A DNA stretch of 64,000 nucleotides, taken from NCBI GenBank assembly GCA_963840855.1, contig CAWJBB010000002.1:1-64000 (forward strand). Reading direction: 5' to 3'. Position numbers and translations under genes: made by a program. The notes beneath the pieces were generated by a model. That model had not been told where the DNA came from, did no database searches, and saw only the letters and a list, made by a program, of their open reading frames with translations. The stretch is from an uncultured delta proteobacterium (GTDB taxonomy: Bacteria; Desulfobacterota; Binatia; UBA9968). This document shows positions 16,681 through 25,380 of the stretch, piece by piece (position 1 is the first letter of the stretch; every line of letters begins with the position of its first letter).

Positions 16681-16731
16681 CACCACGAAGTGATCCATGA
16701 TCTTACGTTCGCCCACAGAGAATGAAAATGG
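16681..16731 (+). mobile_element. Relic IS110 left end (target + core + about 41 nt)
   Basis: caccacgaagtgatccatgatcttacgttcgcccacagagaatgaaaatgg aligns with 17936-17986 with about 5 differences. Confidence 0.85.
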
Positions 16732-16744
16732 AGAATTCCCCTTC

Positions 16745-16775
16745 GTAGCCCGGATGGAGCAAAGCGTAATCCGGG
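16745..16775. repeat. GTAG-type REP hairpin
   Basis: gtagcccggatggagcaaagcgtaatccggg. Confidence 0.7.
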
Positions 16776-16829
16776 TTTCTTCATTCACGCACGCCGTTGC
16801 CTCCTGCCACGCCCCATGCCACCTCACTG

Positions 16830-16974: not shown

Positions 16975-17378
16975 TTATTGGTGCTCGCGAAAATCCACGA
17001 CTCTGTTTCTCTCATCAAACGTGATACGGAATTTTTCGAAAACGTCCATCCTTCCCAGCAGGAGCGGAACCTCTTCCGTCATTGACCAGGCCACTCTAGC
17101 AGAGATTTGCTTCGCCCGAAAATAAAAGTGAGACGCCTGACAAGATATGGAACACTTCGGCCCGCGATTCCTCTAATCCTTTTAATGCGGTCTTTGGGGG
17201 TCTGCTCGAGCCGTAATGCCTTTCCGAAGCGGTAAGGGATCATCGAGATATCCGCACCCGAGTCGATGTACAACGGCAATTCAATAACAATCTTTTTATG
17301 TTCTACAATGACGGTTGCAACGGGGCGGTATATTGTGCCGAGGTGAGAATGCTCAGGGCGATAGCGAAAACGAGTCAC
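16975..17378 (-). CDS. Retropepsin-like aspartyl protease (frameshift at about 17116)
   Basis: IDSGAD catalytic motif; adding one G to GGG continues into KQISARVAWSMTEEVPLLLGRMDVFEKFRITFDERNRVVDFREHQ*. Confidence 0.8.
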
Positions 17379-17569
17379 AAAACAAGCACCTCATCGCCTG
17401 GCACCTTGGCCACAAAGGGCACTTTGCGCGGGTAAGATTTCCGGACATTTTTCAAGATTTTCTCTATGGCTTTCCCTTTAGCGACTAGCTTTCCGTCCAC
17501 TAGGACAACGTATTGGTCTTTATACCGAGCTTTATTCAGTCGCAAATACGCTTCCAAATTCTTGCTCAT
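17375..17569 (-). CDS. Small DUF5678-like protein
   Basis: MSKNLEAYL...YKDQYVVLVDGKLVAKGK...VPFVAKVP; stop overlaps protease start (GTGA). Confidence 0.7.
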   Translation of the reverse strand: MSKNLEAYLRLNKARYKDQYVVLVDGKLVAKGKAIEKILKNVRKSYPRKVPFVAKVPGDEVLVL

Positions 17570-17989
17570 TCTTTCCCCTCTTGCGGCTCTACGTCCCATG
17601 CGTAAACTTACTTGGTTCTAAGGGTTTGGTCAAATAATCGAGGCCACGCGCCCCTGCAAGTCGGCAGTGAACTCCGCCGAAGAATCTCTATTCTGTCACG
17701 CATTGACCTGCAACCTACAATTTGAATCAATGAATTAAACCGCCGGCCCACAGTTCTTTGAGAAAAAGCGTTGCCGGCATAATCTCTGTGCCGTCGTCGG
17801 CCCGGCGCCGCATCTTCGCCGCACAGATAACGATCTTTCGCTTCAGTCGAACTTCCTGGCTTAAAGCGCTAAGTCCTTTGTAGTCGCGAGGCAACACCCG
17901 CGCCTTTGATTTCCTTCAATGCCGATCTCGTCTCCCACCACGAAGTGATTCATGATCTTACGCTCGCCCGCAGAAGATGAAAATGGGAG

Positions 17990-18180
17990 GCAGATGCGGT
18001 AAGCAGGGAGCGGCGCCCCAGCGAAGAGATCGATAAGTGAGTGGCGCGAGAGAGCCCGACACGAAGTGTGATCCGGGACATCCTTCGGCGCCTCAGATTG
18101 TCGCCTCGTCATCTGCCGACGAGAGCACGCGAAGGAGAATCGAATATGCCGTATGTCCCCTGGGTGTGCCGCAAGAAAGG
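17990..18180 (+). ncRNA. Putative IS110 bridge RNA (non-coding left end; boundaries approximate)
   Basis: 245-nt non-coding left end; CACGAAG (18060-66) equals left target + core; CGAAGGAG (18130-37) equals element right end + core; order is target then donor. Confidence 0.7.
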
Positions 18181-18190
18181 GGGAGCGTCT

Positions 18191-19465
18191 ATGAGCAAGA
18201 AGAACAGTAGCCCTGCGGGGCTGCAGGCCTTGTATGCGCGCGTGTGCGGGTTGGACCTGCACAAAAAACTGATCGTGGCGTGCGTGCGTATCCTCAATGC
18301 GAAGGATGGCACGGTGCAGAGCACGCTGCGTAAGTTCGGTACGATGACGGCCGATCTGATAGAGCTGCGCCAGTGGTTGACCGAGCAGGGGGTGACCCAC
18401 GTGGCGATGGAGTCGACGGGGATTTACTGGCAGCCGGTGTTCAACCTGCTCGAAGGCCATTTCAAGCTGTTGCTGATCAACGCCCAGCATCTGAAGAAAG
18501 TGCCTGGGCGAAAGACCGATATGAAGGACGCGGAGTGGATCGCGCAGCTTTTGCAGTGTGGGCTGTTGAGGCCGAGTTTTGTTCCCGACCGCCAGCAGCG
18601 CGAGCTGCGGGATCTGACGCGTCAACAGACCAAGCTGGTGCAGCAGCGAAATGCGGTGGACAACCGCATCCAGAAGGTGTTGGAGACAGCCAACATTAAG
18701 CTGGGCTCGGTAGCCAGTGATGTGATGGGGGCGTCGGGACGCAAGATGATCGAGGCGCTGATCGCTGGAGAGAAAGACGTTACAGTGTTGGCGGATCTGG
18801 CCCAGCGCCAGCTGCGCGGCAAGATCCCCGAATTGCAGCGCGCTTTGGAGGGAGAGCTGACCGAGCATCACCGCTTTTTGCTGCGGCAGTTGCTTGGACA
18901 ATACGACTTTCTCGAAAAGGAGATCGCCAGCGTAAGCGAGCGGTTGGGGGCGGTAGCGCCCCCTTCGTTTCGTGCCGCGGTAGAGCAGCTTGATGCGGTT
19001 GCGGGGGTGGGGGAACGTGGAGCCCAAGCGCTGTTGGCGGAAACCGGAACTGACATGAGCCGGTTTCCTACCCACAAGCACTTCGCCTCTTGGGCGGGCC
19101 AGTGTCCCGGCAATCATGAAAGCGCCGGCAAACGGCGCAGCGGCAAAACCCCCGCTGCCAACCGTCACATCGACGCGGTGCTTACCGAGATGGCGCACGC
19201 GGCGGTGCGCACCAAAAACAGCTATTTCAAAGCGCAGTACCATCGTCTGGCAGGCCGACGTGGGAAAAAGCGTGCGATCGGCGCGGTTAAACACAGCCTG
19301 TTGGTTACCGTCTATCTTATGCTCCGCGATGACAAACCCTACAAGGATCTCGGTGTTGACTACTTTGATAAACTCAACCCTCAACAGCGTATTCGTTACC
19401 ATGTCCGCAGACTCCGGGAACTCGGACAGGAGGTGGAATTGTCACCCATGGCTAAAGCAGCCTGA
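18191..19465 (+). CDS. IS110 family DEDD recombinase/transposase
   Basis: GLDLHK, AMESTG, KTDMKDA (DEDD) and ESAGK catalytic Ser; ATG 18191 with GGGGAG RBS. Confidence 0.96.
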   Translation: MSKKNSSPAGLQALYARVCGLDLHKKLIVACVRILNAKDGTVQSTLRKFGTMTADLIELRQWLTEQGVTHVAMESTGIYWQPVFNLLEGHFKLLLINAQHLKKVPGRKTDMKDAEWIAQLLQCGLLRPSFVPDRQQRELRDLTRQQTKLVQQRNAVDNRIQKVLETANIKLGSVASDVMGASGRKMIEALIAGEKDVTVLADLAQRQLRGKIPELQRALEGELTEHHRFLLRQLLGQYDFLEKEIASVSERLGAVAPPSFRAAVEQLDAVAGVGERGAQALLAETGTDMSRFPTHKHFASWAGQCPGNHESAGKRRSGKTPAANRHIDAVLTEMAHAAVRTKNSYFKAQYHRLAGRRGKKRAIGAVKHSLLVTVYLMLRDDKPYKDLGVDYFDKLNPQQRIRYHVRRLRELGQEVELSPMAKAA

Positions 19466-20233
19466 ACCCCACCCCCAACCAAATTTTCGAAGGAGTCCAC
19501 TTCGAACTGGGAGCGGCTGCGCCAATACGTAAGCTCATGATCCAGCCTATGGTAATCCAGATAGCTGCGAAGTTCTAAAATGAGATGTTCCAAGCGACCT
19601 CAAGAAATCGCGAAAAATTCTCAATGGACCGCGTTAGTCCTTCAGCGCGAATCTCCTCATGTAGATATGTGCCCACGTAGGCTTTAAGGTCTTCCTTGTA
19701 GTGAGCGGAATCAATGATCGATGGGAGACTGCCGCGATTGAGACGATCGAGCAACCTTGGACTATCCAGCTCCGCCGACACAAGTGGATGTAGGTGGCAG
19801 ACCCAAGCGCGGCCGCCTAAAAGATTAGCGGCACCCCGTTTGAGTTTTCTAGCGCTGCTCCCGGTTAGAATGACACGCAGCTTCTTGTTGCGTTCGATCA
19901 ATATTTGTCTGGCGTGGGCCAAAGAGAAATACAGACTTGTGCTTGACAGTTTCCCGGAGATTGAAGATCCGTTTATACATTTCGGCAAATATGTTGCCGA
20001 ATTTCATATAATTTGGCAAGTCTATTGCTGATCTGCATGAGCGGTATTTCTCACGGGACTCACTCCGTGACGGGATGGACTGAACGCTTCGCTGCAAGCC
20101 GACATGCAGAGAACGGTCCAATTCAGCAAGGTGAAACTGACTTTGACGTTGCCCTGGAATGGGGCGTGAGTCAGTTGACATTGCGATGCCTTATCAAATA
20201 GCTTTGGCCGCTATAGAATCGGTGCACGAACCA

Positions 20234-23733: not shown

Positions 23734-23801
23734 CACCACGAAGGCACGAAGGACACGAAGGTTTCGGATATTTTTACTCTTAAACTTCGTGAACTTCGTG
23801 C
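23734..23801. repeat. CACGAAG-type REP inverted repeat; right arm split by IS110 copy 2 and continued at 25352-25361
   Basis: caccacgaaggcacgaaggacacgaag ... cttcgtgaacttcgtgc|IS|cttcgtggtg. Confidence 0.85.
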
Positions 23802-23831
23802 CTCCTTCGAAAATTTGGTTGGGGGTGGGGT

Positions 23832-25106
23832 TCAGGCTGCTTTAGCCATGGGTGACAATTCCACCTCCTGTCCGAGTTCCCGGAGTCTGCGGACATGGTA
23901 ACGAATACGCTGTTGAGGGTTGAGTTTATCAAAGTAGTCAACACCGAGATCCTTGTAGGGTTTGTCATCGCGGAGCATAAGATAGACGGTAACCAACAGG
24001 CTGTGTTTAACCGCGCCGATCGCACGCTTTTTCCCACGTCGGCCTGCCAGACGATGGTACTGCGCTTTGAAATAGCTGTTTTTGGTGCGCACCGCCGCGT
24101 GCGCCATCTCGGTAAGCACCGCGTCGATGTGACGGTTGGCAGCGGGGGTTTTGCCGCTGCGCCGTTTGCCGGCGCTTTCATGATTGCCGGGACACTGGCC
24201 CGCCCAAGAGGCGAAGTGCTTGTGGGTAGGAAACCGGCTCATGTCAGTTCCGGTTTCCGCCAACAGCGCTTGGGCTCCACGTTCCCCCACCCCCGCAACC
24301 GCATCAAGCTGCTCTACCGCGGCACGAAACGAAGGGGGCGCTACCGCCCCCAACCGCTCGCTTACGCTGGCGATCTCCTTTTCGAGAAAGTCGTATTGTC
24401 CAAGCAACTGCCGCAGCAAAAAGCGGTGATGCTCGGTCAGCTCTCCCTCCAAAGCGCGCTGCAATTCGGGGATCTTGCCGCGCAGCTGGCGCTGGGCCAG
24501 ATCCGCCAACACTGTAACGTCTTTCTCTCCAGCGATCAGCGCCTCGATCATCTTGCGTCCCGACGCCCCCATCACATCACTGGCTACCGAGCCCAGCTTA
24601 ATGTTGGCTGTCTCCAACACCTTCTGGATGCGGTTGTCCACCGCATTTCGCTGCTGCACCAGCTTGGTCTGTTGACGCGTCAGATCCCGCAGCTCGCGCT
24701 GCTGGCGGTCGGGAACAAAACTCGGCCTCAACAGCCCACACTGCAAAAGCTGCGCGATCCACTCCGCGTCCTTCATATCGGTCTTTCGCCCAGGCACTTT
24801 CTTCAGATGCTGGGCGTTGATCAGCAACAGCTTGAAATGGCCTTCGAGCAGGTTGAACACCGGCTGCCAGTAAATCCCCGTCGACTCCATCGCCACGTGG
24901 GTCACCCCCTGCTCGGTCAACCACTGGCGCAGCTCTATCAGATCGGCCGTCATCGTACCGAACTTACGCAGCGTGCTCTGCACCGTGCCATCCTTCGCAT
25001 TGAGGATACGCACGCACGCCACGATCAGTTTTTTGTGCAGGTCCAACCCGCACACGCGCGCATACAAGGCCTGCAGCCCCGCAGGGCTACTGTTCTTCTT
25101 GCTCAT
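23832..25106 (-). CDS. IS110 family DEDD recombinase/transposase
   Basis: Identical translation to 18191-19465. Confidence 0.96.
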   Translation of the reverse strand: MSKKNSSPAGLQALYARVCGLDLHKKLIVACVRILNAKDGTVQSTLRKFGTMTADLIELRQWLTEQGVTHVAMESTGIYWQPVFNLLEGHFKLLLINAQHLKKVPGRKTDMKDAEWIAQLLQCGLLRPSFVPDRQQRELRDLTRQQTKLVQQRNAVDNRIQKVLETANIKLGSVASDVMGASGRKMIEALIAGEKDVTVLADLAQRQLRGKIPELQRALEGELTEHHRFLLRQLLGQYDFLEKEIASVSERLGAVAPPSFRAAVEQLDAVAGVGERGAQALLAETGTDMSRFPTHKHFASWAGQCPGNHESAGKRRSGKTPAANRHIDAVLTEMAHAAVRTKNSYFKAQYHRLAGRRGKKRAIGAVKHSLLVTVYLMLRDDKPYKDLGVDYFDKLNPQQRIRYHVRRLRELGQEVELSPMAKAA

Positions 25107-25116
25107 AGACGCTCCC

Positions 25117-25307
25117 CCTTTCTTGCGGCACACCCAGGGGACATACGGCATATTCGATTCTCCTTCGCGTGCTCTCGTCGGCAGATGACGAGGCGACAAT
25201 CTGAGGCGCCGAAGGATGTCCCGGATCACACTTCGTGTCGGGCTCTCTCGCGCCACTCACTTATCGATCTCTTCGCTGGGGCGCCGCTCCCTGCTTACCG
25301 CATCTGC
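25117..25307 (-). ncRNA. Putative IS110 bridge RNA, copy 2
   Basis: Same left end as copy 1. Confidence 0.7.
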
Positions 25308-25380
25308 CTCCCATTTTCATCTTCTGCGGGCGAGCGTAAGATCATGAATCACTTCGTGGTGAATAGTATTCTTGGGACTC

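What the first reader, a model, noticed from the sequence alone, without database searches (positions are those of the whole stretch)
17936..19500. IS110 with readable bridge-RNA guides aimed at the host's CACGAAG REP repeats
Seen: all three left junctions (16681, 17936, and 25361 on the minus strand) are CACCACGA-AG, and AG is repeated at the right junction. The non-coding left end contains GACACGAAG (18058-66), matching target + core and identical to a REP unit at 23752-60. It is followed by CGAAGGAG (18130-37), matching the element's own right end + core. GCGCCT (18088-93) is a candidate right-target guide with one mismatch to AGGCAC. A right-donor guide is not obvious. Established: IS110-group elements encode a bridge RNA with target- and donor-binding loops in this order. 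Inference: a recently active, reprogrammable recombinase with an AG core (IS621 uses CT) that targets a lineage-specific REP family.
Basis: partly seen in the sequence, partly recalled or inferred. Interest (0 to 1): 0.8.

Follow-up and report, generated by a model that had tools for sequence, protein, structure and literature searches.

The report
Bridge-RNA insertion sequence targeting host repeats
This is a recently active IS110-family jumping gene whose guide RNA has two readable segments that match, and change together with, the host repeat it inserts into and its own right end; the mechanism is known, but the RNA layout is the mirror image of the textbook example.

Summary
Window 17946-19494 is an intact 1549-bp IS110-family element (Pfam DEDD_Tnp_IS110 + Transposase_20). 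A second identical copy lies at 23803-25351(-) and two more elsewhere in the genome.

- **Guides confirmed.** ACACGAAG (18059-66) matches the DNA left of the insertion point plus AG. CGAAGGAG (18130-37) matches the element's right end plus AG. Both co-vary with those DNAs across 61 independent insertions of relatives (0 of 10000 permutations as good).
- **RNA fold.** Both guides sit in a conserved two-loop RNA fold, with 29 of 40 pairs compensated in distant relatives.
- **Target.** It is the outer unit of a REPIN-like host repeat (arms of CACGAAG units), found patchily within one bacterial family.

Corrections:
- The third 'left junction' (16681) belongs to a ~206-nt MITE that shares the IS ends.
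- AG is simply CT, the IS621 core, read on the other strand.
- Both guides lie on the 3' strand of their loops, the reverse of IS621.
- The proposed right-target guide GCGCCT is invariant, lies in the donor loop and does not track the target.
- No guide for the right half-sites was found, and the right target flank carries almost no information.

Closest known system: ISPpu9/MITEPpu9.

The parts
17936..17945 (+). Left target half-site plus crossover dinucleotide (CACCACGA + AG) of copy A
   Evidence: The same 10-mer precedes copy B, the copy on contig C17 and the MITE copies. In relatives, positions -9 to -1 carry 1.45-2.0 bits each.
17946..19494 (+). IS110-family insertion sequence, copy A (1549 bp)
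   Evidence: copies; domains. The flanks differ immediately outside these ends.
17946..17990 (+). Left-end module shared with MITEs: right-donor half-site TGATTCA..., subterminal segment 17965-17976, invariant ATGAAAAT 17977-17984
   Evidence: ATGAAAAT is nearly invariant: 7 of its 8 positions are invariant in all 55 relatives, and it recurs in Dehalococcoidia and Paenibacillus relatives.
18012..18170 (+). Structured core of the predicted bridge RNA. Stems: P1 18012-15/18167-70, P2 18017-19/18162-64, P3 18028-32/18069-73, P4 18042-47/18054-58, P5 18075-83/18151-59, P6 18087-89/18148-50, P8 18099-110/18118-29
   Evidence: In the 55 close relatives 99.0% of cells are paired against 32-44% when the partners are slid. 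In distant relatives 29 of 40 pairs are compensated. The transcript ends are not known.
18059..18066 (+).
18067..18068 (+). UG after the target guide; it equals the first two bases of the element (handshake-like)
   Evidence: The match runs 2 nt into the element in the window, L047, L034, L037, L023 and L028/L030, with the dinucleotides TG, TT, AT and AC.
18088..18098 (+).
   Evidence: The copy is exact, and different, in several distant lineages. It is imperfect (one indel) in this element. Its function is unknown.
18130..18137 (+).
18191..19465 (+). Recombinase gene, 424 aa (an in-frame ATG at 18146 would give 439 aa)
   Evidence: The ATG at 18146 reads AAG in several relatives.
19482..19494 (+). 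Right end: ATTTTC hexamer (19482-87) abutting the left-donor half-site + AG (19487-94)
19495..19506 (+). Right flank of copy A (TCCACTTCGAAC), unrelated to the repeat; lies inside a decayed ATPase gene
23803..25351 (-). IS copy B, identical to copy A; left half-site at 25361-25352, right flank GCACGAAGTTCACGAAG from 23802 downward
23734..23760 (+). Unoccupied arm of the host inverted repeat (CACCACGAAG GCACGAAG GACACGAAG), facing the arm that holds copy B
16691..16824 (+). Truncated copy of MITE-A, preceded by CACCACGAAG at 16681-16690

Best explanation
The element is an intact, recently mobile IS110-family insertion sequence. Its 245-nt left non-coding end most likely encodes a bridge RNA on the same strand as the recombinase gene.

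The RNA folds into two adjacent internal-loop domains enclosed by outer stems. In the first loop, ACACGAAG (plus UG) has the sequence of the host DNA just left of the insertion point, the AG crossover and the first two bases of the element. It would therefore pair with the opposite strand there. In the second loop, CGAAGGAG has the sequence of the element's right end plus AG.

The recombinase-RNA complex would bring the circularised element (right end joined to left end at AG) to a site ending CACGA-AG and exchange strands at AG. The preferred site is the outermost CACGAAG unit of a REPIN-like host repeat.

Only the left half of the target, and the right-end half of the donor, are detectably RNA-specified. 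Occupied sites therefore stay targets, and any CACCACGAAG can be hit. A family of ~206-nt MITEs with the same ends rides on the system.

Shown here: domains, copies, junctions, fold covariation, guide-flank covariation. Inferred: transcription, RNA-protein binding, circle formation, strand exchange at AG.
For: - **Protein.** PF01548 E 5e-29 and PF02371 E 2.9e-18, both matched end to end. There are 8000 or more relatives; the best 120 are at least 85% identical.
- **Copies.** Two identical copies, one at 99-100%, and one rearranged.
- **Empty site.** The joined flanks of copy B are a sequence that exists unoccupied in the genome.
- **Target guide.** 51 of 61 perfect over 7 nt; 23 of 23 variant guides fit their own flank best; 0 of 10000 permutations. 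The top mutual-information hits are the in-register identity columns.
- **Donor guide.** 37 of 55 perfect. CAAAGGAG (4 loci) and CCAAGGAG (5 loci) pair with the same change in the right end; 0 of 10000. L113 has CGAAAGAG in both.
- **Fold.** 99.0% of cells paired against 32-44% slid, with 7 compensated pairs. A covariance model found the RNA upstream of the gene, on the same strand, in 11 of 53 distant loci. There, 92.4% were paired against 34-44% slid, and 29 of 40 pairs were compensated (that alignment is fitted to the model).
- **Strand.** G.U pairs are conserved in all 55 sequences at three positions, which would be C.A on the other strand.
- **Distant relatives.** Guide columns give 8 of 8 matches in the element's own left flank in 6 of 11 loci and at its own right end in 8 of 11. 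Cross-locus controls gave 0 of 104 each; contiguous lengths are.
- **Left-only targeting.** Right-flank positions +1 to +6 carry at most 0.38 bit, against 1.45-2.0 bits at -9 to -1. In 7 of 31 cases the right flank is another element's left end. Copy A sits in a gene with a perfect left half-site and an unrelated right flank.
- **Host match.** Relative G021 has CRCAGAG arrays and an element with guide ACACAGAG.
- **Mechanism rules.** Taken from passages of PMC11208160 and PMC11208158.
Against: - No transcript start or end is known. Single-sequence folds are no better than shuffles (z -0.76 and -0.27).
- No sigma-70-like promoter passed the scan, and no Rfam family matched.
- Soil metatranscriptome contigs hold the left end, but they run on into flanking DNA, so they do not show an RNA of its own.
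- No guide was found for the right target or for the right-donor half-site next to the core, although the IS621 mechanism uses four guides.
- Both guides lie 3' of their loop's hairpin, unlike IS621.
- 18 of 55 elements tolerate a mismatch at position -7 of the donor guide.
- 4 of 61 insertions have two or more target mismatches.
- The protein is only distantly related to the two solved recombinases (E about 1e-11, C-terminal part only).
Confidence: 0.85

Rival explanations
1. One reading: an IS621-like layout with left-target guide, then right-target guide GCGCCT (18088-93), then the donor guides, i.e. four-guide recognition of CACCACGA-AG-GCAC.
For: GCGCCT is complementary to AGGCAC at 5 of 6 positions, and GCAC is the commonest right flank in this genome.
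Against: GCGCCT is invariant in 54 of 55 relatives while the right flank varies. Its mean complementarity of 3.38 of 6 equals the shuffled 3.37, and it shows no mutual-information signal. It lies within stem P6 and the donor-loop 5' strand, a domain closed by the well-compensated stem P5. Copy A has a right flank of TCCAC.
Confidence: 0.05
2. All four half-sites are RNA-read, as in IS621, but the right-side guides are too short (core plus 1-3 nt), discontinuous or too conserved to be seen by covariation in this data set.
For: In IS621 the natural right-target pairing is only 4 nt, and the right-donor pairing is discontinuous (PMC11208160 and PMC11208158 passages). GAAUC after the donor guide is complementary to GATTC of the left end, with a mean of 4.15 of 6. 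The 5' strands of both loops are 9 nt long and could hold guides.
Against: The right-donor bases 3-5 vary (TGATTCA, TGTTTCA, TGTGTCA, TGGGCCA) with no compensating change. The target-loop 5' strand shows no relation to the right flank within 60 nt: observed 5.59 against shuffled 5.45, with 7 of 200 shuffles as high. In the Dehalococcoidia relative that strand appeared to shrink to about 1 nt, though this rests on my own by-eye reading of the sequence and the covariance-model alignment places stem P3 differently. Re-insertion at occupied sites occurred in 7 of 31 cases.
Confidence: 0.3
3. The guide-like strings act as DNA or mRNA features, not as RNA guides. Examples: copies of the ends bound by the protein, or GAAGGAG serving as the ribosome-binding site of the ATG at 18146.
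For: GAAGGAG lies 8 nt before an in-frame ATG, and some databases-aa proteins from that ATG.
Against: That ATG reads AAG or is otherwise absent in several relatives, while GAAGGAG is kept. The string co-varies with the right end. Both strings sit in single-stranded positions of a fold with compensated stems and strand-specific G.U pairs. The same rule holds in relatives with unrelated guide sequences.
Confidence: 0.05

Closest known systems
ISPpu9 with MITEPpu9 (Pseudomonas putida KT2440; PMC12288879, passages seen)
   Same: IS110 group. Non-coding region upstream of the gene. Recombination at an AG present at both junctions. Inserts into host REP sequences. A long left box (43 bp) and a short right box (16 bp) are shared with a small non-autonomous element found both beside the IS and alone. 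Here the shared parts are about 45 nt on the left and about 19 nt on the right, and there are 11 MITE-A copies.
   Different: Different host phylum and a different repeat (arrays of CACGAAG units rather than a 35-bp REP). Protein relatedness to ISPpu9 was not tested. The passages I read gave no guide positions for ISPpu9. Whether the MITE here encodes a small RNA is unknown.
IS621 bridge RNA system (PMC11208160, PMC11208158; passages seen)
   Same: DEDD/RuvC-like plus Tnp domains. RNA upstream of the gene. Two internal loops, each with a hairpin, one reading the target and one the element's joined ends. [quoted passage not shown] REP target. A two-base extension after the target guide resembles the handshake guide.
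   Different: The protein is 424 aa against 326-aa-class proteins and is only weakly similar (E 3e-11). The covarying guides are 3' of the loop hairpins, not 5'. Read in the gene's direction the core is AG, not CT. Right-side guides were not found. An outer stem encloses both loops.
ISPpu10 (bioRxiv 10.64898/2026.03.19.712850; abstract and passages seen)
   Same: A bridge-RNA IS110 element whose natural targets are REP copies, often in convergent pairs. It can mobilise ends-only cargo in trans.
   Different: ISPpu10 has a CT core and a stringent right-target guide, and a target stem-loop adds specificity. Here the right flank carries almost no information.
IS1111-type seekRNA elements such as ISEc11 (PMC11187229; passages and section 6 seen)
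   Same: The guide order is reversed relative to IS110-type ISEc21. Subterminal inverted repeats are present: here the inverted hexamers GAAAAT and ATTTTC, extending to 9 nt in the Paenibacillus relative.
   Different: In IS1111 types the non-coding region is usually downstream of the gene and the proteins are 330-350 aa. Here it is upstream and the protein is 424 aa, the size class of the IS110-proper subgroup (395-455 aa).

Membership tests
IS110 family (transposase definition) | N-terminal DEDD/RuvC-like domain (PF01548) | tested here: met
   E 5e-29, profile positions 1-153 of 155. The motifs GLDLH, AMESTG and KTDMKDA are visible in the translation; assigning them to the catalytic residues is from recall.
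IS110 family (transposase definition) | C-terminal Tnp domain (PF02371) with the conserved Ser | tested here: met
   E 2.9e-18, profile positions 3-87 of 87. HESAG aligns with YESGS of ISCro4. Here the residue after Ser is A rather than G.
IS110 family (element definition) | No terminal inverted repeats, site-specific insertion, no duplication beyond the shared core | tested here: met
   The ends are TGATTCA... and ...GAAGGAG, and only AG is shared. The empty site exists in the genome.
IS110 family (element definition) | Circular intermediate with abutted ends | not testable with these tools
   Right end-left end abutments are seen in contigs (e.g. L114, L125, L132). They cannot be told apart from tandem copies.
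Bridge RNA system (IS621 paradigm) | Structured non-coding RNA with two internal loops beside the recombinase gene | tested here: met
Bridge RNA system (IS621 paradigm) | A loop segment that co-varies with the left target + core | tested here: met
Bridge RNA system (IS621 paradigm) | A loop segment that co-varies with the left donor (right end) + core | tested here: met
Bridge RNA system (IS621 paradigm) | Segments complementary to the right target and the right donor | tested here: inconclusive
   None was found by mutual information, complementarity scans or flank comparison. Short or invariant guides cannot be excluded.
Bridge RNA system (IS621 paradigm) | Order within each loop: stem, left guide, hairpin, right guide | tested here: not met
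   Both covarying guides follow the hairpin (P4 then guide; P8 then guide). The IS621 order is from PMC11208158. Read in mirror image (core CT) they occupy the right-guide positions.
Bridge RNA system (IS621 paradigm) | The RNA is made and binds the recombinase | not testable with these tools
   RNA-library contigs hold the left end but give no ends or strand.
IS1111 group | Subterminal inverted repeats of sufficient length; non-coding region downstream of the gene | tested here: not met
   Only a 6-nt inverted hexamer is present here. The non-coding region is upstream. Criteria are from PMC11187229 section 6.
ISPpu9/MITEPpu9-like system | AG crossover, REP target, end boxes shared with a MITE | tested here: met
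   Criteria are from PMC12288879. Protein kinship was not tested.

The most novel reading that the evidence does not exclude
A large, widespread clade of long-recombinase IS110 elements runs a mirror-image bridge RNA. It was seen here in relatives labelled Binatia, Planctomycetota, Chloroflexota and Bacillota.

- The only core-adjacent guides are the two 3'-strand segments (8 nt, plus a 2-nt handshake extension on the target side).
- The element therefore needs only one half-site on the target and one on the donor.
- It can re-enter occupied sites, and can even retarget to the right ends of sibling elements.
- The 5' strand of the donor loop is a third guide. It reads a subterminal left-end segment about 20 nt inside the element, beside a subterminal inverted hexamer.

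This would be a mode of donor recognition not described for IS621.
Probability: 0.3. Interest if true: 0.65.

Novelty: new variant of a known kind. Interest (0 to 1): 0.45.

Why it matters
Bridge-RNA recombinases are being developed as programmable genome-writing tools, and almost all mechanistic knowledge comes from the short IS621-like proteins. This element belongs to a distant, long-protein branch with thousands of close metagenomic relatives. In that branch, nature has already rewritten the target guide many times: 11 variants were seen, each sitting beside a matching flank. That gives a ready-made specificity table.

If recognition really rests on one half-site per partner, in a layout mirrored relative to IS621, two things follow. 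It would bear on how direction and fidelity are set in this enzyme class. It would also explain tandem pile-ups and hitch-hiking MITEs. For the host genome, it shows an active element that mostly lands in harmless repeats but can hit any CACCACGAAG, as copy A did inside a gene.

Tried and rejected
- **Single-sequence folding** of the left end was no better than shuffles.
- **Rfam** at E up to 1 gave nothing.
- **Sigma-70 promoter scan** found none.
- **Right-side guide searches** gave no signal:
  - mutual information between every RNA column and right-flank or left-end positions;
  - windowed complementarity against shuffled pairings;
  - target-loop 5' strand against 60 nt of right flank, in both senses.
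- **RNA evidence.** 24 runs were listed, and four soil or rhizosphere metatranscriptome runs were laid. Contigs of relatives cover the left end and MITE copies, but they run on into flanks. This gives no verdict on a transcript.
- **Rejected readings:**
  - 16681 as a solo IS fragment; it is a MITE.
  - The IS inserted inside a host repeat; the ~45-nt left module travels with every IS copy, and the right flanks are unrelated.
  - CGAAG/CTTCG (18062-66/18083-87) as an RNA stem; it breaks in CACAGAG-guide relatives.
  - CCCG/CGGG as a hairpin around the guide; the G-to-A change in L018 and L162 is compensated in P5 instead.
  - RNAalifold's 3-bp pairing of CUC with the GAG of the donor guide; I left it out of the tested structure.
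Full report
**What is there.** Window 17946-19494 holds a 1549-bp element with one long gene. Its product carries both domains that define IS110-family recombinases, each matched end to end: PF01548 at E 5e-29 and PF02371 at E 2.9e-18. The likely coding region is 18191-19465 (424 aa). An earlier in-frame ATG at 18146 is not kept in relatives.

The window's genome holds several copies:
- an identical copy at 23803-25351 on the minus strand;
- a third copy on contig C3 at 99-100% identity;
- a fourth on contig C17, whose interior has been replaced by MITE sequence.

The protein has at least 8000 database relatives. The best 120 are at least 85% identical, and one is named an IS110 family transposase of a Binatia MAG. 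It is only remotely similar to the two solved bridge recombinases, IS621 and ISCro4 (E about 1e-11, C-terminal part only).

**Checking the observation.** The left flanks of the full copies read CACCACGAAG (TACCACGAAG on C3). The sequence outside that differs between copies, and both copies in the window end in CGAAGGAG.

Joining the flanks of copy B gives a sequence that exists unoccupied many times in the genome. The 18-mer CACCACGAAGGCACGAAG occurs 42 times, and its backwards control 0 times. The element therefore sits between CACCACGA-AG and GCACGAAG with one AG at each junction.

**The third 'junction' is a MITE.** The first ~45 nt of the element recur at about 90% identity at a dozen other places. 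Aligning these shows a ~206-nt non-autonomous element. It has the IS left end, an unrelated interior with a long inverted repeat, and an IS-like right end (...ATTTTCAAAGGAG, decayed in several copies). It lies in the same site, CACCACGAAG ^ GCACGAAG.

I counted 11 copies of this type, including the truncated one at 16691-16824, and 2-3 copies of a second type. This mirrors ISPpu9 and MITEPpu9 of Pseudomonas putida. Those share a 43-bp left box and a 16-bp right box, recombine at AG and insert into REP sequences (PMC12288879, passages).

**Do the guide-like strings behave as guides?** I fetched 79 loci from species genomes and 80 from metagenome contigs. Of 93 close-relative entries examined, 63 had a complete left end; the others ended at a contig edge or lacked my anchor motifs and were dropped. 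They represent 61 different insertions.

Target guide (the segment aligned with 18059-66):
- It equals the 7 nt before the junction in 51 of 61 insertions, differs by one in 6, and by two or more in 4.
- Eleven guide variants occur: ACACGAAG, CCACGAAG, ACACAGAG, CCACAGAG, CCGCAGAG, ACGCAGAG, CCACAAAG, ACGCAAAG, ACACGGAG, CAAAGGAG and CGAAGGAG.
- All 23 elements with a non-majority guide lie beside a flank closer to their own guide than to the majority guide.
- Shuffling guides among loci never matched the observed fit (0 of 10000).

Donor guide (the segment aligned with 18130-37):
- It equals the last 8 nt of the right end in 37 of 55 loci and differs at one position (-7) in 18 of 55.
- The variants CAAAGGAG (4 loci) and CCAAGGAG (5 loci) occur only with the same change in the right end (0 of 10000).
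- Locus L113, outside that set, has CGAAAGAG in both places.

In an unbiased scan, the strongest mutual-information signals for the left flank and the right end are exactly these columns, in register and with identity rather than complementarity. Both segments have the sense of the gene strand. By the published rule (PMC11208160 passages) they would pair with the opposite strand.

**The RNA fold.** RNAalifold on 55 distinct left ends gives this arrangement:
- outer stems P1 and P2;
- a first domain: P3, a 9-nt strand, hairpin P4, then the target guide;
- a second domain: P5/P6, a 9-nt strand, hairpin P8, then the donor guide.

On that alignment 99.0% of cells pair, against 32-44% when the partners are slid. 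Seven pairs show changes on both sides, and no shuffle reached the observed values on four of the five measures. G.U pairs kept in all 55 sequences at three positions argue for the gene strand as the RNA strand.

A covariance model of the core found full-length matches in 11 of 53 distant loci at 33-55% protein identity. All were upstream of the gene and on its strand. The records were labelled Planctomycetota, Chloroflexota, Bacillota and others. On that alignment 92.4% of cells pair against 34-44% slid, and 29 of 40 pairs are compensated against 11-13 slid. That alignment is fitted to the model, which favours the structure.

In these distant elements the columns of the two guides hold quite different sequences. 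Even so, they match their own left flank 8 of 8 in 6 of 11 loci, and their own right end 8 of 8 in 8 of 11. Cross-locus controls gave 0 of 104 in each case. The right-end match always follows a conserved ATTTTC.

**How it differs from IS621.** In IS621 each loop reads stem, left guide, hairpin, right guide (PMC11208158). Here both covarying guides come after the hairpin.

AG is the reverse complement of CT, the IS621 core. Read in mirror image, the element has a CT core and the two guides occupy the right-guide positions. In keeping with that, the target guide is followed by two bases that equal the first two bases of the element, like a handshake guide. These are different dinucleotides in different lineages: TG, TT, AT and AC.

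The seekRNA study reports a reversed guide order for IS1111-type elements, whose non-coding region is downstream (PMC11187229). This element has the region upstream, and its protein falls in the size class of the IS110-proper subgroup. I did not find this combination described in the papers I read.

**The right halves.** I found no segment that tracks the right target flank or the left-end bases next to the core.

Among 31 insertions with the CACGAAG guide:
- positions -9 to -1 carry 1.45-2.0 bits each, whereas +1 to +6 carry at most 0.38 bit;
- 7 right flanks are the left end of another IS or MITE, meaning the element re-entered an occupied site, whose left half is untouched by the first insertion.

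Copy A lies in the tail of a decayed AAA_14-type ATPase gene, at a perfect CACCACGAAG with an unrelated right flank. Ten of the 61 insertions carry guides CAAAGGAG or CGAAGGAG and sit directly after the right end of a sibling element. Published 2026 preprints report half-match recombination for IS110 elements (abstracts; passages), which fits this picture.

**An unexplained third relation.** The 5' strand of the donor loop (18088-98) is a same-sense near-copy of 17965-76, the segment just before the invariant ATGAAAAT. In this element the copy is imperfect, with one indel. In distant relatives it is exact and lineage-specific, with 8-10-mers such as CACAGGCTAT, CACAACGTAG and GCACCACGTA. At least 9 of 10 positions match in 6 of 17 loci, against 1.3% of 232 cross-locus controls. 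Its polarity fits neither the IS621 rule nor its mirror image. It may be a displaced right-donor guide or a regulatory feature. GAAAAT in the left end and ATTTTC in the right end form a conserved inverted hexamer across the clade.

**The target repeat.**
- CACCACGAAG occurs 112 times against 16 expected from base composition.
- 79 arrays hold two or three CACGAAG units, and 26 of them form facing pairs within 150 nt, like REPINs.
- The empty-site 18-mer occurs in 12 of 61 related genomes, all in the same family (11 of 36 others) and in none of 24 from two sister families.
- The RNA region occurs in 6 of 61 genomes.
- Relative G021 lacks the CACGAAG site but has 17 CRCAGAG arrays, and its element has the guide ACACAGAG.

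**Verdict.** The finding is real, and its two central assignments are right and now well supported by covariation. The mechanism is the known bridge-RNA mechanism, and the closest described system is ISPpu9/MITEPpu9. What is unusual is the mirrored guide layout, the apparent half-site recognition and the third same-sense segment. These are clade-wide features that deserve a bench test.

Noticed in passing
window 16691-16824; G000 contigs C4, C7, C30, C32, C45, C50, C67, C79, C81, C2:131266-131421: MITE-A is a ~206-nt non-autonomous element with the IS left module, a long internal inverted repeat (GTAGCCCGGATGGAGC... facing ...GCTCCATCCAGGCTAC) and an IS-like right end. Copies are about 90-96% alike, so they are older than the IS copies. 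Whether it makes an RNA is unknown.
   Followed up: partly
G000 contig C17:23340-24506 (locus L004): In this IS copy, positions 1054-1504 are replaced by the interior of MITE-A. The joins fall at short shared strings (CCCCTTCGT; GGCTA), which suggests recombination between the IS and the MITE or a common origin.
   Followed up: partly
window 19578-20003 (-) and 17864-17944 (-): Copy A interrupts the 3' part of a decayed ATPase gene (AAA_14 domain, E 1.8e-6). The reading frame continues across the insertion point on the other side of the element.
   Followed up: partly
window 17082-17617 (-): Two small adjacent ORFs lie just left of copy A: DUF5678 (E 2.8e-11) and a weak aspartyl-protease-like match (E 4e-4, below the Pfam cut-off).
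   Followed up: no
loci L018, L125, L130, L131, L132, L149, L151, L152, L162, L169/L173: These relatives have target guides (CAAAGGAG or CGAAGGAG) that equal the right end of sibling IS or MITE copies, and they lie directly after such an end. The elements have retargeted to other copies, which builds tandem arrays.
   Followed up: partly
genomes G021, G034, G027, G001: A sister repeat family built of CRCAGAG units occurs in arrays of three, in 9 to 28 arrays per genome. Only one such array is present in the window's genome.
   Followed up: partly
locus L034 (Maioricimonas record): A relative in a planctomycete, 49% identical in protein, inserts at CACGG-AG-ACACGGAGG. That is also an array of heptamer units with an AG crossover.
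   Followed up: no
G000 C81:29600-29698 and more than 50 other places: The 3' ends of a large paralogous gene family (73-85% DNA identity) lie next to several repeat or MITE sites. The family was not identified.
   Followed up: no
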